DNA of 62,130 nt from Patescibacteria group bacterium (GCA_041671325.1 JBAZBR010000006.1:1-62130), one strand, 5' to 3'; positions 3,146 to 20,462 are shown, counted from the stretch's first letter. Notes: generated from the sequence alone by a model not told the origin. Numbers and translations: made by a program.

Positions 3146-4207
3146 TTATGTTCCGAGTTTTTGCTTAAAGTAATTTACCCACCTTATAGCTGCGGGATTG
3201 ATGTGGTATTGCAAGCCTAAACCCAAAGTCAGGTTGCTGCCAAGTACCACGGCTTCAATGGCCTGTTCTAGCTTGGTTTTTGATTGGAGTGATAATTCCA
3301 AGACTTTAGGGCCATTTTTCTGGATTACTTCCTTGGTTAAGCGCATCCGTTTCTGGATTCTGGGTGAATAAGCTTTGGAATTCAGCATTAAAAACACGGT
3401 ATTCCGGATATTAATCTTGGGGTTAGTCAGGCCTTCCATCAAGTGGTGATTCAATTCGGGAATTGGGAACCAGGTGGCAAAGCTTTTTGCCGTTTCATTG
3501 AATTGGTTGGCAAAAACATGGGCTGCCCCAACCAAATGCTCAGCGCCGACTACCAAAATGGCTTTACCGGATATTTGCCTAGTCAATTTCGCAATTGGAC
3601 TGGTAGTTTTTTCTAAATTGAACCGAGCTCCAACTTTACGGGCAGTTTGGATAGCCGACAAAATTTCCGTCTCAGTGATTTGCAATAAGCCAACCTTTTT
3701 CCATAAGCCCAGCAAACCAAAAATACCATAACCCAAACCAATCCTAGGTTGCTTAGATGGATTCGCTCTGGGATTAAAAATATAACTTGGGGTCTTGTTG
3801 GCTCTGGCGATTTTTGCCAAAGGCCCGCCTGCGCAAATGACCAGCATTTTTGCTTTTTTGGCTTTGGCAGACTTAAAAGCGGCCAGGGTTTCTTCGGTTG
3901 TGCCTGAATAACTTGAGAGTGTGACCAGGGTTCTGGAATTGACCCAGGCTGGAAGCTTATAGTCATTAATTATGATTATTGGCGCTTTGAGTTTGTCAGC
4001 GCAAGCGGTTTGGATTATATGCGCACCCAAGGCTGAGCCACCCATGCCGGCATCTACAATACAATCCACTTGGCTGGCCAGGGATTTGATCTTTAACTTT
4101 TGCGTCTCCTTATATGCCTGCTGCGCTTGGTCGGCAAAAAGGTTCACTGATTCAAAAACTTTTGCTTTGTCGAATTTTTGTATTAAGCCTGTGAAGGGCG
4201 ATTTCAT
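3146..4207 (-). CDS. Bifunctional phosphoglucose/phosphomannose isomerase (two SIS domains)
   Basis: AGMGGSALG, SSYSGTTEETL, QPRIGLGY, NQFNETAK and PELNHHLMEG motifs of the archaeal-type PGI/PMI family. Confidence 0.9.
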   Translation of the reverse strand: MKSPFTGLIQKFDKAKVFESVNLFADQAQQAYKETQKLKIKSLASQVDCIVDAGMGGSALGAHIIQTACADKLKAPIIIINDYKLPAWVNSRTLVTLSSYSGTTEETLAAFKSAKAKKAKMLVICAGGPLAKIARANKTPSYIFNPRANPSKQPRIGLGYGIFGLLGLWKKVGLLQITETEILSAIQTARKVGARFNLEKTTSPIAKLTRQISGKAILVVGAEHLVGAAHVFANQFNETAKSFATWFPIPELNHHLMEGLTNPKINIRNTVFLMLNSKAYSPRIQKRMRLTKEVIQKNGPKVLELSLQSKTKLEQAIEAVVLGSNLTLGLGLQYHINPAAIRWVNYFKQKLGT

Positions 4208-4283
4208 GTTCCTACCCTAACTCCATTTAAAAATCCTGGCAAGTATTAATTCTGGCCAAAGATTGGAATTAACTTATTATGCG

Positions 4284-4312
4284 TTGACTAAAACCTTTAT
4301 TTTTAGTATAAT
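4284..4312 (+). promoter_or_regulatory. Sigma70-type promoter of the yebC-ruvC-GT4 operon
   Basis: TTGACT-17 nt-TATAAT. Confidence 0.7.
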
Positions 4313-4348
4313 TATTACACTTTAAAAATCTAAGATGGGATTTTAACG

Positions 4349-5074: not shown

Positions 5075-5552
5075 ACCAAAAATCGTTTTGGGCATTGACC
5101 CGGGCTTTGGCCGGGTCGGTTGGGGGGTTATTGAATATGCTAAAAACAAGCTGCGGGTTAAAGGTTACGGAGTGCTTGAGACTCCGGCTAAAACCGAATT
5201 TGCCCTGAGGCTTAAATATATTTTTTTAGAGGTTTCCAATTTAATAAAAAAATACCAGCCAGACTTGGCCGGGGTGGAAAGGCTATTCTTCTCCAAAAAT
5301 ATCAAGACGGCCATGCAAGTCAGCGAAGCCCGGGGTGTAATCCTCTTGGCCTTGGCTGAACAAAAAATAAAAGTCCATGAATGCACGCCCCAAGCTGTCA
5401 AGCAAACCTTGGTTTCCTACGGCCGGGCTGAAAAATTACAAATCCAACGTATGGTAAAAACCTTGTTAAAATTACCTGTCATTCCCAAACCCGACGACGC
5501 GGCGGATGCTTTGGCAATTGCCATAACTGCGGCTTTTTCCGAAAAATTATGA
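5064..5552 (+). CDS. ruvC: Holliday junction resolvase RuvC
   Basis: LGIDPG, ERLFFSKN, GRAEKLQIQRMV and PDDAADALAIA motifs. Confidence 0.97.
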   Translation: MPIKPKIVLGIDPGFGRVGWGVIEYAKNKLRVKGYGVLETPAKTEFALRLKYIFLEVSNLIKKYQPDLAGVERLFFSKNIKTAMQVSEARGVILLALAEQKIKVHECTPQAVKQTLVSYGRAEKLQIQRMVKTLLKLPVIPKPDDAADALAIAITAAFSEKL

Positions 5553-6820
5553 AACGCATCGCCCTTATTAATGTCCATTGCGATCCTTTAGAGCAGCTGG
5601 GCTCGGCCGAAGCAGGCGGCCAAAATGTGTATGTTTTCCATTTAGCCAAAGCCTTGGGTAAACTTGGTTTTCACGTGGATGTTTTTTCCCGGCTTAACTC
5701 CAGACTAAAAAAAGAACGCGTTAGGTTGACCAAGCATGTCCAATTCATCCGCTTGCGAGCCGGGCATAGACATTTTATCCCTAAAAATGAACTCGGACCC
5801 TTACTGCCAGAATTCATCAGTAATTTTTTGGCTTGGCAAAAACAGGAAAAAGCAACTTATTGCATGTTACATTCGCATTATTGGGAAGCCGGCTGGGTCA
5901 CTTTGCAATTGAAATCAATCTTGCGTTTGCCCCAAGCCCACACCTTCCATTCCTTGGGTATCATGCGCTATAACGCGCTTAAAGGTTTTCGCGAACAAAG
6001 CTTGAATACCAAGGAAATCAAGCACCGGATTGCCGTGGAAAAAGAAATCACCCAAAAAGCCGACCGCATAATCAGCACCAGTCCTTATGAGCGGGAATAT
6101 TTGGAAAAGCACTACGCCGCCAATCCTGATCACATCCGGGTAGTGCCTTGCGGCGTGGATTTAATCCGTTTTAAACCGATTGACCGCTTCGTTGCCAGAC
6201 GAAAAATCGGGGCTGAGCCAACGGAAAAAATAATTCTTTATACTGGCCGGATTGAATGGCGCAAAGGCATTGGCACTTTGGTTATCGCAGTTTCCAAATT
6301 ATTCAAACACCACCCGGAATTAAGGAAAAATACCCGACTCTATATTGTCGGCGGCAATTTGGGACGCCGGGCCGAGCCCGAGGTCAGGGATGAAATCCGC
6401 AGGCTTAAAGATGTTTGTCGGGAGCTGGGTATCCGCGACCGGGTGGAGTTCACCGGGGCGGTTCAACAAGAAAAACTGCACTTCTATTATTCAGCCTCAA
6501 ATGTTTGCGTCATTCCCTCCTACTATGAGCCTTTCGGCATGGTGCCATTGGAAGCCATGGCCTGCAAGGTGCCAGTTATCGCCTCAAATACTGGAGGGTT
6601 GCCTTATAGCGTCAGGGATGGCAAATCTGGAATTCTGGTACCCGTCAGAAATCCGGGTTGTATTGCCAACCAGCTTTTCAAAATTCTGCACGACCGGGAA
6701 TTTTCCGAAAAACTTATCCGGGGCGGCCGGGATCTGGTAAAAAACACTTTCTCCTGGAGGATTATTGCCGAGCAAGTCGCCCATGTATACGAACGGGTTT
6801 TAGAAACCCAAAAAAAATAA
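5549..6820 (+). CDS. GT4 glycosyltransferase, MshA/sucrose-phosphate-synthase-like
   Basis: HCDPLEQLGSAEAGGQNVYV, HSHYW, HTFHSLG, GRIEWRKG and PSYYEPFGMVPLEAMAC motifs. Confidence 0.85.
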   Translation: MKRIALINVHCDPLEQLGSAEAGGQNVYVFHLAKALGKLGFHVDVFSRLNSRLKKERVRLTKHVQFIRLRAGHRHFIPKNELGPLLPEFISNFLAWQKQEKATYCMLHSHYWEAGWVTLQLKSILRLPQAHTFHSLGIMRYNALKGFREQSLNTKEIKHRIAVEKEITQKADRIISTSPYEREYLEKHYAANPDHIRVVPCGVDLIRFKPIDRFVARRKIGAEPTEKIILYTGRIEWRKGIGTLVIAVSKLFKHHPELRKNTRLYIVGGNLGRRAEPEVRDEIRRLKDVCRELGIRDRVEFTGAVQQEKLHFYYSASNVCVIPSYYEPFGMVPLEAMACKVPVIASNTGGLPYSVRDGKSGILVPVRNPGCIANQLFKILHDREFSEKLIRGGRDLVKNTFSWRIIAEQVAHVYERVLETQKK

Positions 6821-8258: not shown

Positions 8259-9029
8259 TTGTTAAATATTTCGGACATTATGGTTATTCAAACTGACCTC
8301 CTAAAACTCGGTTTTAACGCCAGCCGCAGTGCGGTCTACCTGGCTTGTTTAGAGCTCGGCTCTTCCACGGTGGCAGATATAGCCAAAAAATCTGGGATTC
8401 GGCGAACCACGGCCTACCGCATCCTCGAGGAACTAGTCGAAGATGGCTTGGCCGAAGAAGATCTGACTGGCCCAATCAAACGTTTTACTGCCCAGCCTCC
8501 TGGCCAGCTTGTCCAGCTTTTAAACAGCAAGAAAAATCAGGCTGAACAGCTTCTGCCAGAGCTAACCAAACTATTCCACCAGACTTCAGAAAAACCCAAA
8601 GTGCGTTTTTACGCTGGCCTTCGGGGACTAAAGACTATGTTGGAAGACTCCCTGACTTCAAAGGAAAAACTGGTTCGTTCCTTTTCTCCGTTGACGACTG
8701 ACCTGACGGCAACTATGGGCCAAACCTACACTCGGCACTACATTCAGCAGCGAATTAAACTTGGGGTTGAGCGACACGCTCTTCGCCCCTACACCCAAGA
8801 TAAAATCACTTCTAAAGACTGGGAATTCCAAGCTAGTGACCCAAAGCTCAAGCGCCAAGTCCGTTTCTTGCCTGAACGTTTGACTTTCCGAACACCCATT
8901 CAAATTTACGATGATAAAGTAACTATCATGGATTTGGACCAGCAGTTCGGATTTATTATGAAAAATTCCGCCTTGGCAAATTTCCTCAAACAGATTTTCG
9001 ACATGCTCTGGAACGTGGCGGAAAAATGA
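8259..9029 (+). CDS. TrmB family transcriptional regulator (wHTH plus PLD-like domain)
   Basis: LLKLGF...VYLACLELG...IAKKSGIRRTTAYRILEELVEDGL; C-terminal IQIYDDKVTI; ATG at 8280 may be the real start. Confidence 0.88.
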   Translation: MLNISDIMVIQTDLLKLGFNASRSAVYLACLELGSSTVADIAKKSGIRRTTAYRILEELVEDGLAEEDLTGPIKRFTAQPPGQLVQLLNSKKNQAEQLLPELTKLFHQTSEKPKVRFYAGLRGLKTMLEDSLTSKEKLVRSFSPLTTDLTATMGQTYTRHYIQQRIKLGVERHALRPYTQDKITSKDWEFQASDPKLKRQVRFLPERLTFRTPIQIYDDKVTIMDLDQQFGFIMKNSALANFLKQIFDMLWNVAEK

Positions 9030-9054: not shown

Positions 9055-10173
9055 TTAAGTTTTACTTACCTTTTCCTCCTCTTCCCTGGCTTTTTTTATA
9101 CCTTCAGCTTTCTTTAATATCCTGGCGGCATGTTCAATGCTTTCTGGCCCCAAGCGTCCGCCTTTTTCAAAATACACAGCCTTACGCCTGCCTTGATCAT
9201 CTCTAATCCAACGAAAGCTGGTATTAGCTTGCTTGGGTTCGATCGCTTCATTCCCAGCTTTTAAGGCTTCGGTTTTAGCTCCGCCCACTAACACGGCCTG
9301 CAGCTTTTCGGTTTTTAAAAGCATATCAACGTCATTGCCGCTATCGCCGGCAACCATGCCTTTCTTTACACCTGTCAATTTGCTGACATATTCCACTGCG
9401 CCAGCCTTGGTGATTGGCAAGATATCTAAACAATATTTTTTTCTAGTGGCTTCAGGCGGAAGTTGATTGTTAAAATTAATCTCTTCGGAAATCACCAACT
9501 GTTGCTCAGGAAACCGCTCATTGGCGGCTTTTGAAATTTTTTCTAATTCAGCTTCAGATTCGGCAAAAAAATGGAAGCTAATTTTAAATGGCTGAACGTC
9601 AATTGAAGTATCGTCTGGATTTTGCAAATATGCTATCTCGGCCAAGCGATGAGGCGATTCAATGGTGCCTTGGTAATCCAACTCGGCTTGCGGAAATTCA
9701 GTTTTGAAATCTTTAATCATTTTAGCGGCATTTTGAGCCAAAGCCGGCCGATCAAAATGTTTTTCTTTAATCAACATTTCTTGATAATTCAGGTCTTGGG
9801 CATATTCGCCGTTTTCCTGCAAAACCCAAATTTCCGTGCCCACGGCGCCAATTATCACCGGGAATTTTGGTAATTCCCCGCTTTCAATTCTTTTCATTAC
9901 CCCTTGAAAATGGTTACCGGTAACGGCAACCACCGGGTATTCGCCCTCTTTGGCTTTAGCAAAAAGAGCTTCAGATTCTTGCTGTCGATCTTTACGGTGG
10001 AAGGTATTATCGATGTCCGTAAAGAGCGCGCTAAATTCTTCGCCACGTTCTTCTTGGTTGGCTTTCATCTTCAATAATTCCGAATTTGAATAGACAGCCA
10101 GTAGTTTTTCAGAAAATTCAGTCTCTGGATTCAGCTCGCCTAATTTTTCTGAACTTTCTAATTCTTCGGACAT
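9055..10173 (-). CDS. HAD-IIB phosphatase, sucrose-phosphatase-like
   Basis: Motif I FTDIDNT, motif II VTGN, GAVGTEI, QPFKISF, LDILPITKAGAV and motif IV GDSGND. Confidence 0.8.
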   Translation of the reverse strand: MSEELESSEKLGELNPETEFSEKLLAVYSNSELLKMKANQEERGEEFSALFTDIDNTFHRKDRQQESEALFAKAKEGEYPVVAVTGNHFQGVMKRIESGELPKFPVIIGAVGTEIWVLQENGEYAQDLNYQEMLIKEKHFDRPALAQNAAKMIKDFKTEFPQAELDYQGTIESPHRLAEIAYLQNPDDTSIDVQPFKISFHFFAESEAELEKISKAANERFPEQQLVISEEINFNNQLPPEATRKKYCLDILPITKAGAVEYVSKLTGVKKGMVAGDSGNDVDMLLKTEKLQAVLVGGAKTEALKAGNEAIEPKQANTSFRWIRDDQGRRKAVYFEKGGRLGPESIEHAARILKKAEGIKKAREEEEKVSKT

Positions 10174-10767: not shown

Positions 10768-10773
10768 TCTTAG

Positions 10774-13222: not shown

Positions 13223-13279
13223 TATATGCAAATTTATTCGTAGTTCGTATATTCGTATTTTTTTCGTAATTCGTAACCT

Positions 13280-14260
13280 ATGAACCGCAAGACCTTGTTA
13301 ATCCACGTCAGAAATATCCTAAAAAAACGGGGACTGACGCCCGATGAAGACGTCAAAGACATCCTCAAGCACCACATGCGCTTTTTCCGCACTCGCTGTG
13401 TGGACCAAGAGGGCAATAAGTTTACTTTCAAAATTTATTTGCTTAAACTCGCCCGCACGCGCCGGGACTTCCAAAACGAAATTGCTTTTTACCGCTACGC
13501 GGCCAAGGCTCACTTAGACCAATTCCCGCGCTGGGTGGCGGGCAACCGCAATTCTCAAAATCCCTGGATTATTTACCACTTCATCCCTGGCGAGCTATTC
13601 ACTAATTATTTACGCAAGCACCAGCATAGCCTTTCGAAAAACCTTATCCAAAAGTTAACCCACGCCCTCTTAGCGTATGGCAATTTAAAATTACCTCATA
13701 ATGTAAAAAAACAGCTCCACTTGAAACCCGCAGCCAATAATTATTCGGATCGCTTTCGGGGCTATTTGCAGGGTAACCAAAAAAATACCTTGCTCAAATA
13801 TTTAAGCAATGCCGAACTGGAAGCAGCAGCCAGGATTATTGCTTTTCACCAACTAGGCATGAAGTTGAAATCCCAAACCGCCGTAAGTCATGGGGATTTG
13901 AGCACTAACAACCTATTGATCCACCAACAGGACTTTGCGGTCTTGGATTGGGAACACGTCCAGTTTGCCTCACCAGCTTATGATGCGGCCGAAATCTGGG
14001 TGAAGGAATTTTCCAAGGCACCCTGGCGCAACCACCTGGCTTTAAGGCTGACCAAAAGCCAAGCTAATTCCGAAGCTTTTAGCTGGCTATTCTGCATTGA
14101 AGTTTTATTATTCTGCTTGCGCGACCTATTGCTGCATGACCGGATCTTGCACGAACTTCATTCCCCAAAACGAAAAAGGATAGTCAGAAAATTGCTGAAT
14201 TATTACGTTAAAACTTTTCGCGCTAGCCTGCGTGGCTTTTCTCCGCTTTTAAAAAGTTAG
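13280..14260 (+). CDS. APH/choline-kinase-fold phosphotransferase
   Basis: FKIY...NEI; Brenner motif HGDLSTNN followed by LDWE. Confidence 0.75.
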   Translation: MNRKTLLIHVRNILKKRGLTPDEDVKDILKHHMRFFRTRCVDQEGNKFTFKIYLLKLARTRRDFQNEIAFYRYAAKAHLDQFPRWVAGNRNSQNPWIIYHFIPGELFTNYLRKHQHSLSKNLIQKLTHALLAYGNLKLPHNVKKQLHLKPAANNYSDRFRGYLQGNQKNTLLKYLSNAELEAAARIIAFHQLGMKLKSQTAVSHGDLSTNNLLIHQQDFAVLDWEHVQFASPAYDAAEIWVKEFSKAPWRNHLALRLTKSQANSEAFSWLFCIEVLLFCLRDLLLHDRILHELHSPKRKRIVRKLLNYYVKTFRASLRGFSPLLKS

Positions 14261-14264
14261 TTTT

Positions 14265-15320
14265 ATGAAAAAATTAAGAATCGCCCAAGTCGCGCCTTTG
14301 GCCGAGCGCGTCCCGCCCAAAAAATACGGTGGCACTGAACTGGTCATATACAACCTGATTGAAGGCTTGGTTAAAGAAGGCCACCAGGTTACGCTTTTCG
14401 CTAGGTCGGATTCCAAGACCTCAGCTAAACTCTCGCCGCTTTATCATCCCGACCCTAAAGCCCAAAAACGCTACCAGACTAGAGGCTATATAATTCCTAA
14501 TTACTGGCAAACTTTGGAGTTTGGCCGAGTTTTTGAACACGCCAATCATTTTGATGTCATCCATTTGCATTTGGGCTCGGCTTTTTTCCCCTATACTCGG
14601 CTGATCAAAACGCCTTGCGTTCTGACTTTACACGGCCGGCTGAACACTAAAGAAGCGGCAGTCATCCATAATGCTTATTCGGAAATCCCTTTGGTTTCCA
14701 TTTCCAATAACCAACGCAAACCTTTGACGAATTTAAATTTCATTCGCACGGTTTATAACGGCATTGATTTAAGTAAATTCAAATATGGCACGGGCCACGG
14801 CGGCTATTTGGCTTTTTTGGGGCGCATGAGCCCGGAAAAAGGCCCAGTCCAAGCCATTCAAACAGCCAAGCGGCTTGGCCAAAAACTGATCATGGCCGCC
14901 AAAGTGGATACGGTTGATGAGGAATATTTTACTAAAAAAGTTAAACCTCTGATTGACGGTAAACAAATCATCTTTTTGGGCGAAGTTAATCATCCAAAAA
15001 AGGTTGAATTACTAAAAAATGCTGCTGCACTGCTGGCCCTGATCCAGTGGGAAGAGCCCTTTGGCTTGTTTATGACCGAAGCCATGGCCTGCGGTACGCC
15101 AGTAATTGCCACACGCCGAGGCTCGGTGCCGGAAATCGTTGAACAAGGTAAAACCGGTTTTATGGTGGATAATGTTGCCCAGGCCGTACGAGCAATTAAA
15201 CATTTACCGAAAATTCACCGGCCAGATTGCCGAAAAAGGGTGGAACAATATTTTTCCAAAGATACTATGGTCGCTGGTTATGAGGAAGTGTACTATAAGC
15301 TTATACGCCAGAAAAAATGA
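14265..15320 (+). CDS. GT4 glycosyltransferase, paralog 2
   Basis: LRIAQVAPLAERVPPKKYGGTE, FLGRMSPEKG, WEEPFGLFMTEAMACGTPVI. Confidence 0.9.
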   Translation: MKKLRIAQVAPLAERVPPKKYGGTELVIYNLIEGLVKEGHQVTLFARSDSKTSAKLSPLYHPDPKAQKRYQTRGYIIPNYWQTLEFGRVFEHANHFDVIHLHLGSAFFPYTRLIKTPCVLTLHGRLNTKEAAVIHNAYSEIPLVSISNNQRKPLTNLNFIRTVYNGIDLSKFKYGTGHGGYLAFLGRMSPEKGPVQAIQTAKRLGQKLIMAAKVDTVDEEYFTKKVKPLIDGKQIIFLGEVNHPKKVELLKNAAALLALIQWEEPFGLFMTEAMACGTPVIATRRGSVPEIVEQGKTGFMVDNVAQAVRAIKHLPKIHRPDCRKRVEQYFSKDTMVAGYEEVYYKLIRQKK

Positions 15321-16390
15321 AACCTAAAATCGCCATCTTAGCTTCAAACCTATATCCTATCCCACCCAAAGCCACCAACGCGGCCGAACTGATTGTTTCC
15401 CAAATAACCGAGGGTTTGGTGGCTTTAGGCTACCCAGTGACTCTGTACGCGGCTGGTGATACAAAAACTAAAGCCAGGCTGGTTTCGGTAACGAAAAAAG
15501 CTTCAATTTCGGATCCAAAGATTGGTATGACTAACCACAAAACCTATGAAACCCTTCTGACTTCCCAGGCTTATGCTGACGCTAACCAATGGGGCGCTAA
15601 AATTCTCTTAAGTAATATAGCCATGGTCAGCGCACCATTCGCCAGGTTTGGTAAATTCCCAAGTGTGGCCCTGCTCCACAGCCCACCGACTTTTACGGAT
15701 TCGCAAATCATGCTGGATAATAATAAATTCCAAAAATACATTTCCATTTCCAATGCCCAAAGAAAAGCAGTCAAACATGCCCATTATGTCGGTACGATTT
15801 ATCATGGCGTTGATACCAATAAATTAAAATTTCACCCCCAGGCTGGCAAGTACCTGGCTTTCCTGGGCCGGATCCGTGATTACAAAGGCGTGGTTGAGGC
15901 TATCCAAGTTTCAAAAGCCACTAAAATGCCTTTGAAAATTGCTGGCCCAATTGGCGACCAAAAATATTTCGACAAATTCGTCAAACCCAACCTGAGCAAA
16001 AACATTAAATTTGTTGGCGAAATAAATCATGCTCAAAAAAGCGAATTTTTAGGTAACGCCCTAGCCACGCTTTTCCCAATTGGCTGGGAAGAACCGTTTG
16101 GCTTGGTCGTCCCGGAATCATTGGCCTGCGGTACGCCAGTCGTGGCCTTCAAGCGCGGTTCGGTACCGGAAATTTTAAAAAACCAGAAGACGGGTTATAT
16201 TGTGACCAATGTCAAACAAATGATTAGCGCGGTTAAAAATATTAATAAAATCTCCCGTGTGGTTTGCCGTAAAGAAGCAGAAAAAAGATTTTCCGTAAAC
16301 AGGATGGTTTTGGATTATGCCAAACTTTTAACTCGCCTGACCCGCCCGGCATCGCCTTCGGCTTCAGCCGTTGGCGGACGGGGTAAATAA
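15317..16390 (+). CDS. GT4 glycosyltransferase, paralog 3
   Basis: FLGRIRDYKG and WEEPFGLVVPESLACGTPVV; the YGG loop is replaced by TNA; the C-terminal tail is read through a palindrome. Confidence 0.85.
   Translation: MKPKIAILASNLYPIPPKATNAAELIVSQITEGLVALGYPVTLYAAGDTKTKARLVSVTKKASISDPKIGMTNHKTYETLLTSQAYADANQWGAKILLSNIAMVSAPFARFGKFPSVALLHSPPTFTDSQIMLDNNKFQKYISISNAQRKAVKHAHYVGTIYHGVDTNKLKFHPQAGKYLAFLGRIRDYKGVVEAIQVSKATKMPLKIAGPIGDQKYFDKFVKPNLSKNIKFVGEINHAQKSEFLGNALATLFPIGWEEPFGLVVPESLACGTPVVAFKRGSVPEILKNQKTGYIVTNVKQMISAVKNINKISRVVCRKEAEKRFSVNRMVLDYAKLLTRLTRPASPSASAVGGRGK
16341..16378. repeat. GC-rich palindromic element read as the C-terminal tail of GT4 paralog 3
   Basis: CCGCC-CGGC...GCCG-TT-GGCGG nested stem, translated as RPASPSASAVGGR. 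Confidence 0.45.
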
Positions 16391-16393
16391 CTT

Positions 16394-17308
16394 ATGAAAA
16401 AACCTGAACTTAGAATTGACTATATTCATGACCGTGCCGTGATTATCGCCCCGCGGCGCACCAACCGACCGCATGACGTGCCAGAAACTACAATCCCCGT
16501 CCACCCCCTGGAATGCCCTTTTTGTCCGGATAAAATCAAAGGCCTGAAACCAATTTTCCAATCCGGCAACAAAGAAAATAAAATTCAAATTATTAAGAAT
16601 GGTTTTCCAGCCGTGAGTCTGGATAACCCCAAAGCCTATGGCTACCAGGAGGTTATCATTGAAACTCCCAGCCACAACATTGAATTGGGCGAAATGCCAG
16701 TCAAGCATTTGGACAAACTCTTGAATGTTTATCAGCACCGGACGATTTCGGTCGGTAAAATCAAAAACATAGCATATATTTTAATTTTCAAGAATCACGG
16801 GGGTAAAGCTGGCGCTTCTTTAATCCACGCTCACTCCCAAATTTTTGCCACTGGCTTCGTACCCCCGCACATTGTTTTAAAATTAAAAAACGTCCGGGCT
16901 TACAAGATTGAGCACGGCACTTGCTATTATTGCGATACGCTTAAAAAAGAAAGGCTGGGGCCGCGAAAAATCCTGACCAATAAATACGTTACGGCTTTCG
17001 CGCCCTATGCCTCCAATTACCCTTATGAAGCCTGGATCTTGCCCAATCGACACTTGGATAACTTGACCAGGCTGACCAATCCAGAACGCTTGGCTTTTGC
17101 CAGGGCTTTGCAACATATTTTAAGAAAATTAAATTCTATCCGCGTATCATATAACTATTACCTGCACCAGACCCTGACGGAAAAAGACGAACATTTTTAT
17201 TTACGCATCGCGCCCCGTGAACAAACCTGGGGGGGAGTGGAAGTTGGCTCAAGGTTGATTATCAATTCCATGGCACCGGAAGACGCGGCCAAGTTTTACC
17301 GGAGTTAG
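16394..17308 (+). CDS. GalT-like HIT-superfamily nucleotidyltransferase (galactose-1-phosphate uridylyltransferase/ADP-glucose phosphorylase type)
   Basis: RTNRP, CPFCP, YQEVIIETPSH, IFKNHGGKAGASLIHAHSQ (HxHxQ) and PYEAWILP motifs. Confidence 0.85.
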   Translation: MKKPELRIDYIHDRAVIIAPRRTNRPHDVPETTIPVHPLECPFCPDKIKGLKPIFQSGNKENKIQIIKNGFPAVSLDNPKAYGYQEVIIETPSHNIELGEMPVKHLDKLLNVYQHRTISVGKIKNIAYILIFKNHGGKAGASLIHAHSQIFATGFVPPHIVLKLKNVRAYKIEHGTCYYCDTLKKERLGPRKILTNKYVTAFAPYASNYPYEAWILPNRHLDNLTRLTNPERLAFARALQHILRKLNSIRVSYNYYLHQTLTEKDEHFYLRIAPREQTWGGVEVGSRLIINSMAPEDAAKFYRS

Positions 17309-17336
17309 TAGCCTTATCAATACACCAGACAACCTA

Positions 17337-17411
17337 GCCCAGGTCTCCGCGCCTGGGCTTGTTCGAAATATCTACGTTTGGCCCATGTCGCCCGGGCACG
17401 GAGACCCGAGC
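17337..17411. repeat. Inverted repeat doublet, 22-bp arms, 31-nt spacer
   Basis: GCCCAGGTCTCCGCGCCTGGGC and GCCCGGGCACGGAGACCCGAGC are 18/22 reverse-complementary. Confidence 0.6.
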
Positions 17412-17435
17412 TCGATTAATATGCATTAAAAAAAC

Positions 17436-17463
17436 GAGGTGATATGCGAGTGCATACCACCTC
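17436..17463 (-). terminator. Intrinsic terminator of 17497..18396
   Basis: GAGGTG-A-TATGC/GCATA-C-CACCTC stem with an A-run on the plus strand (U-tract on minus). Confidence 0.6.
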
Positions 17464-17496
17464 TAGCGATTCAAGTACAAAATACGATTTTATTTT

Positions 17497-18396
17497 TTAC
17501 CGACAGATGAACAACCCAGCAGAGAGCTGCGAAGAAGCATCAAAGCCCCTCCCGGTGAACTCGTGCTTTGCGACGTTGCAGACAGCAAATCTGATTGAGG
17601 TATCGTCAAACTTCCATTGAATTGCAGACATGTCGTTGCCTGGAGTATAAACGTCTCTCGCTAGCACATCGGGGTAGGCGGTAATAGCGGTTGCAACGTC
17701 ATAACCCCCAGCCAAATGTACAATCTCTGGCAGAGAATTCGCAAATTCTCGGGCGGCGTCAACCGAAAAACCCTGCAAAGAAATTGGCAAGAATATGCCG
17801 GGAACCGGACCCAGTTGCATCTTGGCAACAAGCCGCTCATGGCTTGGGTGCCTAATAACTACTTCGTCGACAAGATCCCCCTTGAGATGGTTTTCAAAAC
17901 TCCGTTGGGGAAATTCTTTACGGAGCGATCTTTCAGCTGTGGACAGAAAAACCATTTCCATAAGAACCCCGTAGTCATCGTTTCCGACCTTGGGTAGAAC
18001 AAGGGGCAGCCAGACGCCCTGAAAAACATTCTTGAACCTCAGGTCGGCCTCGATAAGCCTATAAAGCAAGGCTACTTCCCGTCGAAATTCCTCTACGGAA
18101 CAAAATGTTGTTCCTGAAGGAAATGCCTGAATGAGCCGATCCAAACGATCGCCATAAATGATTAGGGGCTGTTGAAGGTAACAAGCCCGATCAGCATCGC
18201 AGATTGGCGACTTAATGTTGCGCGGAATACACCTGCCGTTGCGGTCAAAAATGGCTCGGGTTTTGTCATTAATAGTGATCTCTTTTTCGTCGTTTAACAC
18301 GGCTCTAACAATATCGCTGCCGCCTGCTTTCTTTATGAAAGCGGCGATTTGGCCGCCAGTAAACTGGGCGGCATCCTCAAGCGGGTTGCTTAACAT
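17497..18396 (-). CDS. Hypothetical protein
   Basis: 299 aa; SD AAGGAG; own promoter TTGACA (18587..18582)-17-TAAATT; no recognised domain. Confidence 0.65.
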   Translation of the reverse strand: MLSNPLEDAAQFTGGQIAAFIKKAGGSDIVRAVLNDEKEITINDKTRAIFDRNGRCIPRNIKSPICDADRACYLQQPLIIYGDRLDRLIQAFPSGTTFCSVEEFRREVALLYRLIEADLRFKNVFQGVWLPLVLPKVGNDDYGVLMEMVFLSTAERSLRKEFPQRSFENHLKGDLVDEVVIRHPSHERLVAKMQLGPVPGIFLPISLQGFSVDAAREFANSLPEIVHLAGGYDVATAITAYPDVLARDVYTPGNDMSAIQWKFDDTSIRFAVCNVAKHEFTGRGFDASSQLSAGLFICR

Positions 18397-18611
18397 GGAC
18401 TTCTCCTTTCAGCCTAAATTTGGCCGATTGGCATTGTTACCACTATTCCCGTGGTCGAGGAGCTTTTCTCGTTGACTGTCGTACTTTGAGAAGAGCTTAC
18501 AAAACACTATTAATAGCGCCTTAAAAGCTCTTCTCAAAAAATTATCAAAGAACAAGGAAATTTAACAAAATTTGTTAAAAATGTCAAGGCTTTATATGAT
18601 GATAACAGCGT

Positions 18612-20462
18612 ATGCCAAAATTAGATAACAATTTGTGGATTGAGGGCGGTTATTATGTTGACTTTGACCAGCTCAACCAGTTTCGGATATTAGGACCCAA
18701 TAACCACCTGTATTGCGGCTTGATTGATATTCCCCGGCACCGGATTGCTATTGATAAAGTTGAAGCCACCGCAGACCAAAAATGCGTGGTGACTGGCCGA
18801 TTCTTGAGCAAGTCTATCAATCTTTATTACCCGACCATGGGCGACATGCGGACCATGCGGGGCTTGGTGGTCGACCAACAAACCGGTACTTTAAAATCAT
18901 TTTTGGAATTAAGGCGCACCGAGCACAGCGAATCCGTACCCATGTGGATCCATAAAAGCATTGGCTCCGAAGGCAAGGCTATTGTCTTTCGCAGGTCTTA
19001 CGGTGAAAAGTGGTATGGCATAACCTTTACTTTTGCCAAGAACGTTTCCATGCATACGCTGGAAAGGCCGTTTGGCGGCTTCCGCTTGGAAGTTAAAACC
19101 AAAACCCAAATCCCTTTCACTATCACTGCCACCACTAATGATTTTCCAGAAGTTACCTATCATTGCTCGGTCCTACCTGCCGAAGCTATTAACTGGAAAG
19201 TCTTTGGCAAAGAGGCTAAAACTATAAGAAAGTTCTGGGACCGTTCTAAAGTTGAAGCTGACCATTTGATAACTTGGGGCAAAACTTCAGGCGACAGGTT
19301 TGGCACGGTCTTCCCTCGGGATTGGATGGAATCAGTCTTGCTAGGCGCTGGCGATATTCCTTCTGAAACAATCGACGCCATGATCTACCGGTGCTTGGCG
19401 AACGTCGACAGTCATGGCAGGATGTGGCATGAAGACGCAGTCGGTGAATTCCGTTACAAGCACCAGCTTTCCGGCCGGGACATCTTTGACCGAAAAATGA
19501 TTGATATTGAGCCATTGACGCTGTTGGCCTTACGTTATGCTTCGCCGTATTTTTGGACTAATAAGGAGGCCATTAAAAAAATCCGCTTAGTTGCCAATTT
19601 CGTGGCTTCGCGGGCCAGGAAAAAACTTTTCATTGCTTTCAAGCTTAAGCCCAAAAAGTACCAGACTAAAGAAGAGCCTTACTACTTAGTCGGCAATTGG
19701 CGGGACAGTACTTGGGCGTACAAGAAAATCCATCCGCATATCGCGCCTTTTGACGTGAATGCCGTGCTTTACCCCCAGGCCCTGGCTTTAATGCAAGCGC
19801 TTTACCAAAAATTAGATTTAAATATTCCGGATTTGAAAAAAATGCTGCAACGCTGGGAAAAGAAACTGGGTGACTTCGCTTTCCAAAATCCGGATAAATT
19901 AACCGCTTTTGCCCTGGCCGTTTATGGTTTCCCCTCCAACGTCCCGGCCACCAGCACAAAAACCAAGCACCAACTTTTAAAGGTCAACCATTTGGATGAA
20001 TGCTTCCTTTACGCCCTGGCTTGGGGTACGGAAACCGAGTTGATAAGTTTTTGTAAGCGGTTGTTGTCAAAAAATTATTTTTATACTGGATCCGGACCCA
20101 TGTTAATTGCCGCCAACAACGACCTGGGTTACACCACCCAGGAATACCACGGCTTGGTAATTTGGACCCAGCAGGTGGGCTTTACGGTCATGGGCTTAGT
20201 CAAACACTATGAACATAAAAAAACAGACTGGAAAACCTCAACCATCCAGCTGCTCAGAGAAACCTCCTTAAAAATCTGTAAAGACATGATAAAAACTTTC
20301 GACAAACTAGGCTCTATCCCCGAACTCCATTATGATGATCATGACATGCCGCGCTTATTCACTGACCAGCAAGCGGTGGGCGAAAGGATGAGCAAGGTTC
20401 AACTCTGGTCGGCCATTGGCGCCAGAAGAATTTTCCGGGAATACTATAAGCTCTTAAAATAA
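18612..20462 (+). CDS. Glycogen-debranching-enzyme-like (amylo-alpha-1,6-glucosidase/MGH1-like) glycoside hydrolase
   Basis: GTVFPRD, GNWRDS, DVNAVLY, YHGLVIW, IPELH and QLWSA align with the TxFGRD, GWKDS, YHNGSVW, LPELF and QAW motifs of (alpha/alpha)6 glucosidases. Confidence 0.65.
   Translation: MPKLDNNLWIEGGYYVDFDQLNQFRILGPNNHLYCGLIDIPRHRIAIDKVEATADQKCVVTGRFLSKSINLYYPTMGDMRTMRGLVVDQQTGTLKSFLELRRTEHSESVPMWIHKSIGSEGKAIVFRRSYGEKWYGITFTFAKNVSMHTLERPFGGFRLEVKTKTQIPFTITATTNDFPEVTYHCSVLPAEAINWKVFGKEAKTIRKFWDRSKVEADHLITWGKTSGDRFGTVFPRDWMESVLLGAGDIPSETIDAMIYRCLANVDSHGRMWHEDAVGEFRYKHQLSGRDIFDRKMIDIEPLTLLALRYASPYFWTNKEAIKKIRLVANFVASRARKKLFIAFKLKPKKYQTKEEPYYLVGNWRDSTWAYKKIHPHIAPFDVNAVLYPQALALMQALYQKLDLNIPDLKKMLQRWEKKLGDFAFQNPDKLTAFALAVYGFPSNVPATSTKTKHQLLKVNHLDECFLYALAWGTETELISFCKRLLSKNYFYTGSGPMLIAANNDLGYTTQEYHGLVIWTQQVGFTVMGLVKHYEHKKTDWKTSTIQLLRETSLKICKDMIKTFDKLGSIPELHYDDHDMPRLFTDQQAVGERMSKVQLWSAIGARRIFREYYKLLK

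What the first reader, a model, noticed from the sequence alone, without database searches (positions are those of the whole stretch)
3146..20462. Large sugar-conjugate synthesis and breakdown cluster in a CPR-like genome
Seen within 17 kb: PGI/PMI, an MshA/SPS-like GT4, an SPP-like HAD, a GH100-like hydrolase, three more GT4s, an APH-fold kinase, a GalT-like transferase, a GDE/MGH1-like hydrolase and TrmB. Established: SPS plus SPP plus invertase form the sucrose cycle; the related MfpsA/MfppA pair makes mannosylfructose; PGI/PMI yields both F6P and M6P. Inference: a build-and-recycle pathway for a compatible solute or storage glycoside, unexpected in a lineage thought to be biosynthetically minimal. 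The product may not be a known one.
Basis: partly seen in the sequence, partly recalled or inferred. Interest (0 to 1): 0.7.

Follow-up and report, generated by a model that had tools for sequence, protein, structure and literature searches.

The report
Sucrose-oligosaccharide gene cluster in Patescibacteria
A tiny-genome (Patescibacteria/CPR) bacterium carries a conserved set of cytoplasmic enzymes that most closely match the cyanobacterial system for making sucrose and glucosyl-sucrose sugars. It adds a kinase, a nucleotidyl-transferase and a previously unclassified glycosidase-like protein family that appear to belong to the same pathway.

Summary
The gene list is real. The 616-aa "GDE/MGH1-like" protein (h616) has no sequence-family hit and is supported by predicted fold only (GH63-like).

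The key refinement concerns the glycosyltransferases:
- The 423-aa GT4 is 39% identical to Thermosynechococcus Tll1590, a characterised sucrose-phosphate synthase, and keeps its catalytic and phosphate-binding residues.
- The three small GT4s are paralogues (38-50% identical) of Tll1591, glucosylsucrose synthase.

The SPS-like/GSS-like pair is adjacent in 6 other Patescibacteria and 12 cyanobacterial loci. The 616-aa family sits beside GSS-family genes in 18 of 27 informative metagenomic loci, in varied gene orders, often with the GalT-like and APH genes.

All cluster enzymes lack membrane segments. PGI, TrmB and four small ORFs are not conserved parts.

Best reading: a cytoplasmic build-and-recycle pathway for sucrose and alpha-1,2-glucosyl-sucrose-type oligosaccharides. 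The two (alpha/alpha)6 enzymes would do the breakdown, and the kinase plus GalT-like pair would re-activate released sugar. Chemistry is inferred, not shown.

Verdict: a new variant of a known kind, of moderate to high interest.

The parts
5549..6820 (+). Tll1590-type sucrose-phosphate-synthase-like GT4 (423 aa). Its start overlaps the RuvC stop by 4 bp.
   Evidence: Best solved relative is 6kih (TeSPS): 296 bits, 39% identity over 414 aa. TeSPS residues are kept: H158->H134, E331->E327, E339->E335, R178->R160, R249->R234, R253->R238, R105->K79. Its NCBIfam score pattern (MshA 305, glgA_Coryne 159, SPS_N 146 bits) matches that of TeSPS itself (288/154/145).
9055..10173 (-). S6PP-family HAD-IIB phosphatase (372 aa), the candidate sucrose-6-phosphate phosphatase.
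   Evidence: PF05116 at 71 bits against a cutoff of 20.3. The DxDxT motif (D53-I-D55-N-T57) and GDSGND motif can be read directly from the translation. An orthologue at 42% identity ends an SPS-GSS-GSS-HAD operon in L011. It scores below all NCBIfam SPP cutoffs.
10810..12099 (-). GH100/GDE_C-like (alpha/alpha)6 glycosidase (429 aa), a candidate sucrose or alpha-glucoside hydrolase.
   Evidence: PF12899 1e-28 and PF06202 3e-22. Anabaena InvA (5goo) matches at 8e-18. The InvA Glu414 equivalent (FNE389WFHG) and the YHNGGxWP motif are kept. The acid lies in GDW-E-D160, one residue off in the alignment. It is adjacent to the HAD in L001, L006 and L007.
12155..13222 (+). Glucosylsucrose-synthase (Tll1591) paralogue 1 (355 aa), first gene of the + strand operon.
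   Evidence: 45% identical to TeGSS over its full length. Y18, R179, K184, W254 and E256 equivalents are kept. It is the paralogue type found next to the SPS-like gene in other Patescibacteria, at 52-57% identity.
13280..14260 (+). APH-fold small-molecule kinase (326 aa); substrate unknown.
   Evidence: PF01636 1e-16. K51, the H204-G-D206-x4-N211 motif and D223-W-E are intact. The AF2 model has pLDDT 89; Foldseek finds only generic APH-fold kinases at TM about 0.55-0.6. The gene lies inside the GSS operon in L001, L006, L087, L092, L093, L114 and L119. In L086 it is fused to a GlgA-like GT.
14265..15320 (+). Glucosylsucrose-synthase paralogue 2 (351 aa), the closest of the three to TeGSS.
   Evidence: 7fg9/8x3q at 322 bits, E 3e-95, 50% identity. 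Y18, Y70, R117, T119, R179, K184 and E256 equivalents are kept; W10 is replaced by Ala.
15317..16390 (+). Glucosylsucrose-synthase paralogue 3 (357 aa), divergent on the acceptor side.
   Evidence: 38% identical to TeGSS. Donor-side R179, K184, W254 and E256 equivalents are kept, but Tyr18 is replaced by Thr and the GG motif is lost.
16394..17308 (+). Class-I GalT / ADP-glucose-phosphorylase-like nucleotidyltransferase (304 aa).
   Evidence: Best solved relative is 1z84 (At5g18200): 144 bits over the full length. E. coli GalT gives 72 bits. The H145-A-H147-S-Q149-I-F (HXHXQ) and C41-P-F-C44 motifs are present (motif definition from bioRxiv 10.64898/2026.09.13.751320). PF01087 scores 58.6 against a cutoff of 22.1.
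18612..20462 (+). 616-aa member (h616) of an unannotated Patescibacteria family with a GH63-like fold, the candidate alpha-1,2-glucosidase.
   Evidence: No Pfam, NCBIfam or PDB sequence hit. 270 homologues were found, all unnamed. AF2 pLDDT 88; Foldseek best match is GH63 YgjK at 4e-11, then processing alpha-glucosidase I. The GNW-R-D365-S motif and E571 are invariant. E571 aligns with the GH100 base Glu in a weak hhalign match. It neighbours GSS-family GT4s in 18 of 27 informative loci.
3146..4207 (-). PGI/PMI-family SIS isomerase (353 aa). A plausible F6P supplier; cluster membership not shown.
   Evidence: PF10432 8e-27; NF006425 223 bits, below its cutoff. It lies near the cluster only in the window and in L001.
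8259..9029 (+). TrmB-type HTH regulator (256 aa); not a conserved part of the cluster.
   Evidence: PF01978 3.6e-13. No counterpart in L001/L007, where an EamA transporter gene occupies the position.

Best explanation
This is a cytoplasmic pathway that makes and recycles sucrose-type oligosaccharides. It is the Patescibacteria counterpart of the cyanobacterial Tll1590/Tll1591 (SPS/GSS) system.

Proposed steps:
1. Fructose-6-phosphate, interconvertible with G6P through the nearby PGI, is glucosylated by the Tll1590-type GT4.
2. The S6PP-family HAD removes the phosphate to give sucrose.
3. The three diverged GSS paralogues add further alpha-linked hexoses, alpha-1,2-glucose in the characterised enzyme. 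The result is short non-reducing oligosaccharides that serve as compatible solute and/or carbon store.
4. For breakdown, the GH63-fold 616-aa enzyme (h616) trims the alpha-1,2-linked glucoses, and the GH100-like enzyme cleaves the remaining alpha-glucoside (sucrose).
5. The APH-fold kinase and the GalT/ADP-Glc-phosphorylase-like enzyme, encoded inside the GSS operon, turn released or scavenged hexose back into a nucleotide-sugar donor (hexose -> hexose-1-P -> NDP-hexose).

Shown here: homology, residue conservation, absence of membrane segments and gene linkage.

Inferred: every substrate, the roles of the kinase and the GalT-like enzyme, and the physiological purpose.
For: Homology to characterised enzymes:
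- GT4_423 is the closest relative of biochemically characterised TeSPS (296 bits, 39% identity). It keeps the catalytic His/Glu and the residues that bind the S6P phosphate (residues from PMC7264703).
- All three small GT4s are full-length homologues of TeGSS at 38-50% identity. The next solved relative scores only 92 bits. TeGSS makes glucosylsucrose from UDP-Glc and sucrose, and its gene lies next to the TeSPS gene (PMC9909042).

Gene linkage:
- SPS-like and GSS-like genes are adjacent in 6 further Patescibacteria loci and 12 cyanobacterial loci. L011 reads SPS-GSS-GSS-S6PP-HAD.
- The whole cluster is syntenic in L001/L007, L006 and L008.
- h616 follows the GalT-like gene directly in L008 and L087. 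It is linked to GSS genes in 18 of 27 loci with at least 4 kb of upstream sequence, in different orders: L114 SPS-GSS-GSS-APH-h616-GalT-ROK; L139, L133 and L147 SPS/MshA-like-h616-GSS.

Enzyme features:
- h616 has a GH63-like fold. By general knowledge, eukaryotic GH63 processing glucosidase I cleaves alpha-1,2-glucose.
- InvA-type GH100 enzymes are specific for the alpha-1,2 bond of sucrose (PMC6995568), and the base Glu is conserved here.
- There is a precedent for an APH-like anomeric kinase working with a GalT: NahK/GalT2 in the GNB/LNB pathway.
- None of the cluster enzymes has a TM- or signal-peptide-like segment, apart from a marginal 2-window hydrophobic stretch at residues 266-267 of the APH kinase. 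There is no polyprenyl-phosphate transferase or flippase in the cluster.
Against: - No enzyme was assayed, and 38-50% identity in GT4 does not fix donor or acceptor.
- TeGSS Trp10, which stacks on fructose, is not kept in any paralogue. Tyr18 is lost in one, and the acceptor-ring residues differ among the three.
- GT4_423 scores higher against the MshA model than against the canonical SPS model, and is below both cutoffs. TeSPS shows the same pattern.
- The HAD is below every NCBIfam SPP cutoff, and its only solved relative is NtdB.
- The GH100-like family is only about 8e-18 from true invertases. In other phyla it sits beside trehalose or alpha-glucan genes, and alone in L003.
- The HAD and GH100 genes are missing from the locus in L092 and L152.
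- The kinase has no specific structural neighbour.
- Much of the synteny lies next to oriC (dnaA/dnaN/PBP), so part of the conservation may be inherited gene order rather than functional coupling.
- No GalU, GlgC or PGM gene is seen in the window.
Confidence: 0.55

Rival explanations
1. The architecture is the same, but the chemistry differs. The MshA/SPS-like GT4 glycosylates a different phosphorylated acceptor, such as inositol-phosphate, mannosylfructose-type, or a glycerate or other sugar phosphate. The GSS paralogues then extend that product. The end product would be a glycoside not yet described.
For: - The best NCBIfam model is MshA (305 bits) rather than canonical SPS (146 bits).
- K79 replaces TeSPS Arg105.
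- The acceptor-side residues of all three GSS paralogues differ from TeGSS.
- In L139 the phosphatase is an unrelated NT5C-type HAD.
- Patescibacteria carry 3-5 GSS paralogues per locus, against one in cyanobacteria.
- A bifunctional PGI/PMI could also supply M6P.
Against: - TeSPS itself gives the same MshA-over-SPS score pattern.
- The closest characterised enzymes for four of the genes belong to one known sucrose-based pathway.
- The phosphatase is of the S6PP family.
- A GH100-like enzyme is adjacent.
Confidence: 0.2
2. The GT4 / APH / GalT / 616-aa (h616) module is an alpha-glucan (glycogen-like or maltose-1-phosphate-type) storage pathway rather than a sucrose-based one. The kinase would act like a maltokinase.
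For: - L086 has a GlgA-like (GT5+GT1)-APH fusion next to GH57, h616 and a ROK kinase.
- GlgM (6tvp) is among the solved relatives of the GT4s.
- GH100-like relatives sit near TreS-Mak and GlgB in L161.
Against: - No GlgE, GlgB, GlgC or GH13 gene is in the window cluster.
- The GT4s are far closer to TeGSS (239-322 bits) than to GlgM (46 bits).
- The kinase is not specifically similar to maltokinase.
Confidence: 0.08
3. The glycosyltransferases build a surface glycan or glycosylate proteins. The hydrolases are unrelated neighbours.
For: - The small GT4s give weak NCBIfam hits to Agl16 and EPS glycosyltransferases.
- PBP1a lies immediately downstream.
- In L159 a GH100-like relative borders a Bac_transf/GT4 cluster.
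Against: - There is no initiating phosphoglycosyl transferase, flippase, polymerase or membrane segment in the cluster.
- The Agl16 scores (63-83 bits, cutoff 575) are far below the TeGSS match.
- The window's flippase/GT4 pair lies 38 kb away.
- Linkage to a phosphatase and to glycosidases recurs.
Confidence: 0.07
4. There is no functional unit. Carbohydrate genes have simply been kept together by inherited oriC-proximal synteny in one lineage.
For: - YebC, RuvC, PBP1a, dnaN and dnaA are interleaved with or flank the cluster, and their order is conserved too.
- The promoter and terminator scans are at background level.
Against: - Linkage of SPS-like, GSS-like, h616, GalT-like and APH genes persists after rearrangement and outside the oriC context: L086, L114, L139, L133, L147 and the cyanobacterial loci.
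- Gene spacing within the + strand operon is tight or overlapping: -4 to +57 bp.
Confidence: 0.05

Closest known systems
Tll1590 (TeSPS) / Tll1591 (TeGSS) sucrose and glucosylsucrose system of Thermosynechococcus elongatus, and the sucroglucans of Nostoc/Anabaena (PMC7264703, PMC9909042, PMC4390843)
   Same: - GT4_423 is 39% identical to TeSPS and keeps its functional residues.
- The three small GT4s are 38-50% identical to TeGSS and keep the donor-side residues.
- The SPS-like and GSS-like genes are linked, as tll1590 and tll1591 are.
   Different: - There are three (elsewhere up to five) diverged GSS paralogues instead of one.
- TeGSS Trp10 is not conserved.
- The operon also encodes an APH-fold kinase, a GalT-like enzyme and the 616-aa GH63-fold protein (h616). 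None of these was found near GSS in any of the 50-odd cyanobacterial loci surveyed.
- The host is a non-photosynthetic, reduced-genome bacterium.
Classical sucrose cycle: SPS + SPP + alkaline/neutral invertase (GH100)
   Same: A GT4 phospho-sugar glucosyltransferase, an S6PP-family HAD with intact DxDxT and GDSGND motifs, and a GH100-Pfam (alpha/alpha)6 hydrolase with the catalytic Glu conserved.
   Different: - The GT4 is far below the canonical SPS model cutoff (146 against 576 bits).
- The HAD is below the SPP equivalog cutoffs and is 372 aa long, with extra N-terminal and cap sequence.
- The hydrolase belongs to a roughly 420-aa sister family only distantly related to InvA (8e-18). Elsewhere that family neighbours trehalose genes.
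GH63 glucosidases (E. coli YgjK; eukaryotic processing alpha-glucosidase I; mannosylglycerate/glucosylglycerate hydrolases)
   Same: - The predicted architecture is an N-terminal beta-sandwich plus an (alpha/alpha)6 barrel, and the top Foldseek hits are GH63.
- Candidate acid (W-R-D365) and base (E571) motifs sit where this clan has them.
   Different: - There is no detectable sequence-model membership: no Pfam GH63, Trehalase or GDE_C hit.
- TM is only about 0.5 and identity 10%.
- The family forms its own group of about 213 clusters at 50% identity, none with a glycosidase Pfam domain in the ten sampled.
Leloir-like salvage in the bifidobacterial GNB/LNB pathway (NahK, an APH-like anomeric kinase, + GalT2 + GalE), and the Arabidopsis At5g18200 ADP-glucose phosphorylase
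   Same: - An APH-fold kinase and a GalT-family HIT enzyme are encoded in one sugar operon.
- The HXHXQ and Zn CxxC motifs are intact.
- The closest solved relative is At5g18200.
   Different: - The kinase shows no specific similarity to NahK.
- The GalT-like enzyme is class I, not class II.
- There is no GalE or phosphorylase in the cluster.
- The direction and nucleotide specificity are unknown.
MshA (mycothiol GlcNAc-inositol-phosphate synthase)
   Same: It gives the highest NCBIfam score (305 bits) and 235 bits to the C. glutamicum MshA structure. It has the same GT4 phospho-acceptor architecture.
   Different: - The score is below the equivalog cutoff (462.5).
- The protein is closer to TeSPS than to MshA.
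- No other mycothiol genes are present, and the context is sugar metabolism.

Membership tests
Tll1590-type sucrose-phosphate synthase (GT4) | Full-length homology to the characterised enzyme, closer than to any other characterised GT4 | tested here: met
   6kih scores 296 bits (39% identity over 414 aa), against 235 bits for MshA and 108 bits for H. orenii SPS.
Tll1590-type sucrose-phosphate synthase (GT4) | Catalytic His158 and Glu331; UDP-binding Arg249, Arg253 and Glu339; S6P-phosphate-binding Arg105 and Arg178 | tested here: met
   The equivalents are H134, E327, R234, R238, E335, K79 (a conservative change) and R160 (residues from PMC7264703).
Tll1590-type sucrose-phosphate synthase (GT4) | Forms sucrose-6-phosphate from NDP-glucose and fructose-6-phosphate | not testable with these tools
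   Needs an enzyme assay.
Canonical SPS glycosyltransferase domain (TIGR02472) | Score at or above the curated cutoff | tested here: not met
   146.5 bits against a cutoff of 576. TeSPS itself scores 144.9.
MshA (TIGR03449) | Score at or above the equivalog cutoff | tested here: not met
   304.7 bits against a cutoff of 462.5.
Glucosylsucrose synthase (Tll1591/alr1000 type GT4) | Full-length homology to TeGSS, well above other GT4s | tested here: met
   50%, 45% and 38% identity. The scores are 322 bits by phmmer for GT4_351 and 293 and 239 bits by BLASTP for GT4_355 and GT4_357. The next solved relative (BGluT) scores 92 bits.
Glucosylsucrose synthase (Tll1591/alr1000 type GT4) | Donor and catalytic residues Tyr18, Arg179, Lys184, Glu256 | tested here: inconclusive
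   R179, K184 and E256 are kept in all three. Tyr18 is kept in GT4_355 and GT4_351 but is Thr in GT4_357.
Glucosylsucrose synthase (Tll1591/alr1000 type GT4) | Sucrose-contacting Trp10 and the ring of acceptor-cavity residues | tested here: not met
   W10 is replaced by A, E and L. Of the seven ring residues checked, three are kept in GT4_351, one in GT4_355 and two in GT4_357.
Glucosylsucrose synthase (Tll1591/alr1000 type GT4) | Gene linked to an SPS gene | tested here: met
   Adjacent in 6 other Patescibacteria and 12 cyanobacterial loci, and within 5.3 kb in the window.
Sucrose-6F-phosphate phosphohydrolase (S6PP, HAD-IIB) | Pfam PF05116 above the gathering score, with HAD motifs I and IV intact | tested here: met
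   71 bits against a cutoff of 20.3. D53-x-D55-x-T57 and GDSGND are present.
Sucrose-6F-phosphate phosphohydrolase (S6PP, HAD-IIB) | NCBIfam SPP equivalog or subfamily cutoffs | tested here: not met
   TIGR01485 34 bits against 183.65; TIGR01482 35.5 against 107.15.
GH100 alkaline/neutral invertase | Pfam PF12899 above the gathering score | tested here: met
   100.6 bits against a cutoff of 23.6, but GDE_C also scores 79.3.
GH100 alkaline/neutral invertase | Catalytic Asp188 and Glu414 of InvA | tested here: inconclusive
   The Glu414 equivalent is present and invariant in the family (E389). Asp188 aligns with E159, with the invariant D160 next to it.
GH100 alkaline/neutral invertase | Specific hydrolysis of sucrose | not testable with these tools
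   Relatives neighbour trehalose genes (L160) and alpha-glucan genes (L161), so specificity is open.
GH63 | Sequence-model membership (PF03200 or related) | tested here: not met
   No Pfam or NCBIfam hit, and no PDB sequence hit at E<=1. The same holds for ten distant profile hits.
GH63 | Beta-sandwich N-domain plus (alpha/alpha)6 catalytic barrel | tested here: met
   AF2 pLDDT 88 and pTM 0.90. Foldseek best match is YgjK at E 4e-11 and TMq 0.52, then glucosidase I.
GH63 | Acid/base carboxylate pair at clan positions | tested here: inconclusive
   D365 (GNWRDS) and E571 are invariant. The hhalign match to the GH100-like profile is weak (E 0.059) but places E571 on the base Glu.
Class I GalT / ADP-glucose phosphorylase (HIT superfamily) | HXHXQ-phi-phi motif and a Zn-binding CxxC | tested here: met
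   H145-A-H-S-Q-I-F and C41-P-F-C44 (motif).
Class I GalT / ADP-glucose phosphorylase (HIT superfamily) | NCBIfam galT equivalog cutoff | tested here: not met
   TIGR00209 94.1 bits against 102.1; PRK11720 105 against 448.
APH-fold small-molecule kinase (PF01636) | Pfam above cutoff, with the catalytic HxDxxxxN loop, a DxE/DFG-like Mg site and the ATP-binding Lys | tested here: met
   61.9 bits against a cutoff of 23.2. H204, D206, N211, D223 and K51 are invariant or nearly so.
APH-fold anomeric sugar kinases (NahK, maltokinase) | Specific sequence or structural similarity to NahK or Mak | tested here: not met
   No PDB sequence hit at 0.01. Neither enzyme appears among the top 50 Foldseek hits.
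Bifunctional PGI/PMI | PF10432 above cutoff / NCBIfam equivalog cutoff | tested here: inconclusive
   PF10432 94.5 bits against 24.5 (met). NF006425 222.9 bits against 471 (not met).
TrmB sugar-sensing regulator as part of the cluster | TrmB HTH plus sugar-binding C-domain, conserved next to the regulated genes | tested here: not met
   The HTH is present (PF01978). There is only a 22.9-bit partial match to full-length TrmB, and the gene is absent from the syntenic L001/L007.

The most novel reading that the evidence does not exclude
This reading has three linked parts.

1. The 616-aa protein (h616) founds a new glycoside-hydrolase family. The family would be a dedicated alpha-1,2-glucosidase for glucosylsucrose-type oligosaccharides. 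No enzyme degrading these compounds is known to me or turned up in the papers read here.

2. The co-operonic APH-fold kinase and the ADP-glucose-phosphorylase-like GalT form a two-enzyme route from free hexose to nucleotide sugar: hexose + ATP -> hexose-1-P + ADP -> NDP-hexose + Pi. This route is independent of pyrophosphorylase and phosphoglucomutase, so a reduced-genome bacterium could run a storage-oligosaccharide cycle.

3. The multiple GSS paralogues build a hetero-oligosaccharide not yet described.
Probability: 0.2. Interest if true: 0.75.

Novelty: new variant of a known kind. Interest (0 to 1): 0.6.

Why it matters
- Patescibacteria are regarded as metabolically minimal and dependent on hosts. 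A conserved, multi-gene investment in making and recycling a soluble oligosaccharide would give them an osmoprotectant or private carbon store, which bears on how they survive between hosts.
- Glucosylsucrose synthase was only identified in 2022, in cyanobacteria. This survey shows the SPS-GSS pair is also widespread in CPR lineages. It nominates three uncharacterised partners for direct biochemical testing: a GH63-fold family with no database model, an APH-fold kinase and a GalT-like enzyme.
- It offers a candidate for the unknown enzyme that degrades glucosylsucroses.
- It may point to a new minimal route to nucleotide sugars.

Tried and rejected
Searches that found nothing useful:
- PDB sequence searches found nothing for the 616-aa protein (h616; E<=1) or the kinase (E<=0.01), and only NtdB weakly for the HAD.
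- A Foldseek search with the kinase model gave only generic APH-fold hits, so it did not reveal the substrate.
- hhalign of the h616 family against the GH100-like family was not significant (E 0.059). I use only its motif-level correspondence, and flag it as weak.
- A profile search of 1.84 billion representatives reached distant ~650-850-aa proteins. Ten of them had no glycosidase Pfam domain, so no sequence bridge to a named GH family was obtained.
- PADLOC and PHROGs gave no hits on the four family-less ORFs.
- Rfam found no riboswitch or other RNA in the cluster.
- The promoter and terminator scans were at background level.
- Looking up the contig around the first window gene returned only a 4.5-kb contig, with no extra context.
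- Literature searches found no paper on sucrose or glucosylsucrose synthesis in Patescibacteria in the held library.

Ideas considered and rejected:
- TrmB as the cluster regulator: it is absent from syntenic relatives.
- h299, h175, h196 and the 10189-10767 ORF as cluster parts: they are absent from relatives.
- A horizontally acquired island: GC content is unremarkable.

Not tested: comparison with MfpsA/MfppA (mannosylfructose). No sequences were at hand.

Full report
**What is in the region**

ORF listing and Pfam/NCBIfam scans give this map:

| Coordinates | Strand | Size | Assignment |
|---|---|---|---|
| 3146-4207 | - | 353 aa | PGI/PMI-family SIS isomerase |
| 4349-5074 | + | 241 aa | YebC |
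| 5064-5552 | + | 162 aa | RuvC |
| 5549-6820 | + | 423 aa | GT4 (SPS/MshA-like), overlaps the RuvC stop by 4 bp |
| 6916-7443, 7502-8092 | - | 175, 196 aa | family-less ORFs h175 and h196 |
| 8259-9029 | + | 256 aa | TrmB-type HTH protein |
| 9055-10173 | - | 372 aa | S6PP-family HAD |
| 10174-10809 | | 636 bp | gap with a doubtful ORF |
| 10810-12099 | - | 429 aa | GH100/GDE_C-like hydrolase |
| 12155-13222 | + | 355 aa | GT4 (GSS paralogue 1) |
| 13280-14260 | + | 326 aa | APH-fold kinase |
| 14265-15320 | + | 351 aa | GT4 (GSS paralogue 2) |
| 15317-16390 | + | 357 aa | GT4 (GSS paralogue 3) |
| 16394-17308 | + | 304 aa | GalT-like transferase |
| 17497-18396 | - | 299 aa | family-less ORF h299 |
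| 18612-20462 | + | 616 aa | h616, no family hit |
| 20519-23071 | + | 850 aa | PBP1a |

The five genes from 12155 to 17308 form a tightly packed + strand operon, with spacings of -4 to +57 bp. dnaN and dnaA follow PBP1a. The one item that could not be confirmed by sequence is the 'GDE/MGH1-like' 616-aa protein (h616).

**Refining the glycosyltransferases**

- The 423-aa GT4 is most similar, among solved proteins, to Tll1590 of Thermosynechococcus elongatus: 296 bits, 39% identity over 414 residues. It scores 235 bits to C. glutamicum MshA.
- Tll1590 was shown to make sucrose-6-phosphate from UDP-glucose and F6P (PMC7264703).
- The window protein keeps its catalytic His158 and Glu331, and the UDP-binding Arg249, Arg253 and Glu339. 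It also keeps the two residues that hold the S6P phosphate, as K79 and R160.
- Its NCBIfam profile (MshA 305, glgA_Coryne 159, SPS_N 146 bits, all below cutoff) is the same as that of TeSPS itself (288/154/145). The 'MshA-like' label therefore does not argue against SPS activity.
- The three small GT4s all match PDB 7fg9/8x3q. For GT4_351 the match is 322 bits, E 3e-95. That structure is Tll1591, glucosylsucrose synthase. It transfers glucose from UDP-glucose to the 2-OH of the glucose of sucrose and of its own products, and its gene lies next to tll1590 (PMC9909042).
- Identities to TeGSS are 50%, 45% and 38% over the full length. The paralogues are 35-53% identical to each other, and each has its own orthologue in the related contig L001.
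- Donor-side residues (Arg179, Lys184, Trp254, Glu256) are kept in all three. Tyr18 is lost in the third paralogue, Trp10 is lost in all, and the acceptor-cavity ring differs among them. They are GSS-family enzymes, but probably with different acceptor or linkage preferences.

**The other enzymes**

- **HAD.** It passes the Pfam S6PP threshold and has intact DxDxT and GDSGND motifs. It is far from characterised SPPs.
- **GH100-like protein.** It matches Anabaena InvA only at 8e-18. It keeps the YHNGGxWP motif and the catalytic base Glu414 equivalent, and has an invariant W-x-D at the acid position. Its ~420-aa family has more than 1500 members in many phyla. In a Euphemobacter contig it follows OtsA-OtsB-TreT. 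In a Solibacter contig it lies among TreS-Mak and GlgB genes. In one Patescibacteria genome it stands alone. It is best described as a hydrolase of non-reducing alpha-glucosides, with specificity open.
- **GalT-like protein.** It aligns end to end with Arabidopsis At5g18200, an ADP-glucose phosphorylase (144 bits), better than with E. coli GalT (72 bits). It has the HXHXQ and CxxC motifs.
- **Kinase.** It has all the catalytic motifs of the APH fold. It has no close solved relative by sequence. By predicted structure it has only generic ones: aminoglycoside, methylthioribose, choline and amicoumacin kinases.
- **The 616-aa protein (h616).** It belongs to a family of at least 270 unnamed, Pfam-less proteins, almost all labelled Patescibacteria. 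Its AlphaFold model (pLDDT 88, pTM 0.90) is a beta-sandwich followed by a helical barrel. Foldseek ranks GH63 enzymes first (YgjK at 4e-11, then processing alpha-glucosidase I), followed by GH94, GH65 and GH116. The invariant GNW-R-D365-S motif and E571 are candidate acid and base. A full-database profile search found about 213 clusters and no bridge to a named GH family.

None of the cluster enzymes has a membrane- or signal-peptide-like segment, apart from a marginal 2-window hydrophobic stretch at residues 266-267 of the APH kinase.

**Do the genes belong together?**

A scan of 185,579 species genomes with a GSS alignment returned 80 loci. tblastn with the window proteins showed:
- The complete cluster occurs in three close Patescibacteria genomes: L006, L007 (the same region as L001) and L008, at 56-86% identity.
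- An SPS-like gene lies directly beside a GSS-like gene in six further Patescibacteria loci. These are from Moranbacteria/Moraniibacteriota, Saccharibacteria, Gottesmanbacteria, Portnoybacteria and one unclassified MAG. They include L011 (SPS-GSS-GSS-S6PP-HAD) and L022 (SPS plus three GSS).
- The same adjacency occurs in twelve cyanobacterial loci.

A metagenome scan with the h616 alignment returned 69 loci. Among 27 non-duplicate loci with a full-length h616 and at least 4 kb of upstream sequence:
- 18 contain at least one GSS-family GT4.
- 8 contain a GalT-like gene.
- At least 5 contain a detectable APH gene. This is an undercount, because the kinase diverges too fast for tblastn.

The gene orders differ between loci:

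| Locus | Order |
|---|---|
| L087 | GSS-GSS-APH-GSS-GSS-GalT-h616 |
| L114 | SPS-GSS-GSS-APH-h616-GalT-ROK kinase |
| L086 | GSS-(GlgA-like+APH fusion)-GSS-GH57-h616-ROK |
| L139, L133, L147 (partly L134) | SPS/MshA-like GT4-h616-GSS; h616 only 31-32% identical; L139 adds an unrelated NT5C-type HAD |

Linkage that survives rearrangement argues for function rather than inherited order.

There are counter-observations:
- An h616 subclade at 33-38% identity has no GSS neighbours.
- The HAD and GH100-like genes are missing from the locus in L092 and L152.
- TrmB, h175, h196 and h299 are absent from relatives.
- PGI is nearby only in close relatives.
- Much of the conserved neighbourhood is oriC-proximal housekeeping.

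**Most likely mechanism**

1. F6P plus NDP-glucose gives sucrose-6-P (GT4_423).
2. The HAD converts this to sucrose.
3. The GSS paralogues build alpha-1,2-glucosyl-sucrose-type oligosaccharides. Such sucroglucans are reversible salt-stress solutes in Anabaena (PMC4390843).
4. Degradation would run through h616, given its GH63-like fold. GH63 members act on alpha-1,2/1,3-glucosides; this is general knowledge, not tested here.
5. The GH100-like enzyme would then cleave the remaining alpha-glucoside.
6. The kinase and the GalT-like enzyme most plausibly re-activate hexose to NDP-hexose. A precedent is NahK/GalT2 in the GNB/LNB pathway.
7. In loci that also carry a ROK kinase, that enzyme would supply hexose-6-P.

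I put about 0.55 on this overall picture and about 0.4 on the product being sucrose/glucosylsucrose exactly.

The main rival (0.2) keeps the architecture but changes the acceptor. Minor rivals are:
- an alpha-glucan or maltose-1-P-type pathway (0.08);
- surface glycosylation (0.07), disfavoured by the lack of any membrane or lipid-carrier component;
- mere synteny (0.05).

**Novelty**

- The SPS/GSS pair is known from cyanobacteria. Its presence across Patescibacteria was not found in the held literature.
- Two other things appear new: the expansion to 3-5 GSS paralogues, and the recurrent association with an APH kinase, a GalT/ADP-Glc-phosphorylase-like enzyme and an unclassified GH63-fold family.
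- I rate it a new variant of a known kind, with interest 0.6. It is a well-supported and directly testable lead, not a categorical surprise.

Noticed in passing
window 23849-26690 and L005/L087: The window is next to the replication origin region: dnaN (23849-24955, -), a DnaA-like ORF (25194-26690, -), then YidD/YidC/TsaE. The order h616-PBP1a-dnaN-dnaA is kept in a genome whose h616 is only 49% identical.
   Followed up: partly
window 17309-18611; L001 1649-3925: The slot between the GalT-like gene and h616 is variable. The window has a family-less 299-aa ORF on the opposite strand, followed by a strong 12-bp-stem terminator-like hairpin at 17436-17463. L001 has AbiEii/AbiEi plus a Bro-N protein in that slot, and L008 and L087 have nothing. 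No PADLOC or PHROG hit for the 299-aa ORF.
   Followed up: partly
window 6916-7443 and 7502-8092: Two adjacent family-less ORFs are weak paralogues (31% over 52 aa, sharing an ..EQYPxExR.. stretch). They are absent from the syntenic relatives.
   Followed up: partly
window 10174-10809: A 636-bp gap lies between the HAD and GH100-like genes, which are 10 bp apart in L001. It carries an 11/12 sigma-70-like site at 10189-10217 and a 192-aa ORF with a hydrophobic segment. It may be an insertion or a small membrane-protein gene.
   Followed up: no
window 4349-6820; L001, L092, L152: YebC-RuvC-SPS-like are arranged like one operon, with the RuvC stop overlapping the SPS start by 4 bp and an 11/12 promoter-like site at 4284-4312. 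The order is kept in related contigs. This is an odd pairing of recombination genes with a sugar enzyme.
   Followed up: partly
L086 1997-4462: An 821-aa fusion of a GlgA-like glycosyltransferase (GT5 + GT1 domains) with an APH kinase domain. It sits between two GSS-like genes and next to GH57, h616 and a ROK kinase.
   Followed up: partly
L160 2794-8275; L161 1-8242: Relatives of the GH100-like protein lie directly after OtsA-OtsB-DUF5752-TreT in a Euphemobacter contig. In a Solibacter contig they lie among TreS-Mak, GlgB and alpha-amylase genes. This suggests the ~420-aa subfamily acts on trehalose-like or other non-reducing alpha-glucosides.
   Followed up: partly
P0313-P0355 (profile hits of the h616 family): The h616 profile reaches ~650-850-aa (one 976-aa) proteins at E 1e-18 to 1e-8 that also lack any Pfam domain. 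One of them carries PF10645 (Carb_bind). This looks like a larger un-modelled glycosidase-like superfamily.
   Followed up: partly
window 58582-61069: A Polysacc_synt flippase-like gene is followed by another GT4. This is a separate, membrane-linked glycan module 38 kb from the cluster.
   Followed up: no
window 1389-2978: A 529-aa protein with several hydrophobic segments and no family hit in Pfam, NCBIfam, PADLOC or PHROGs lies next to PGI.
   Followed up: partly
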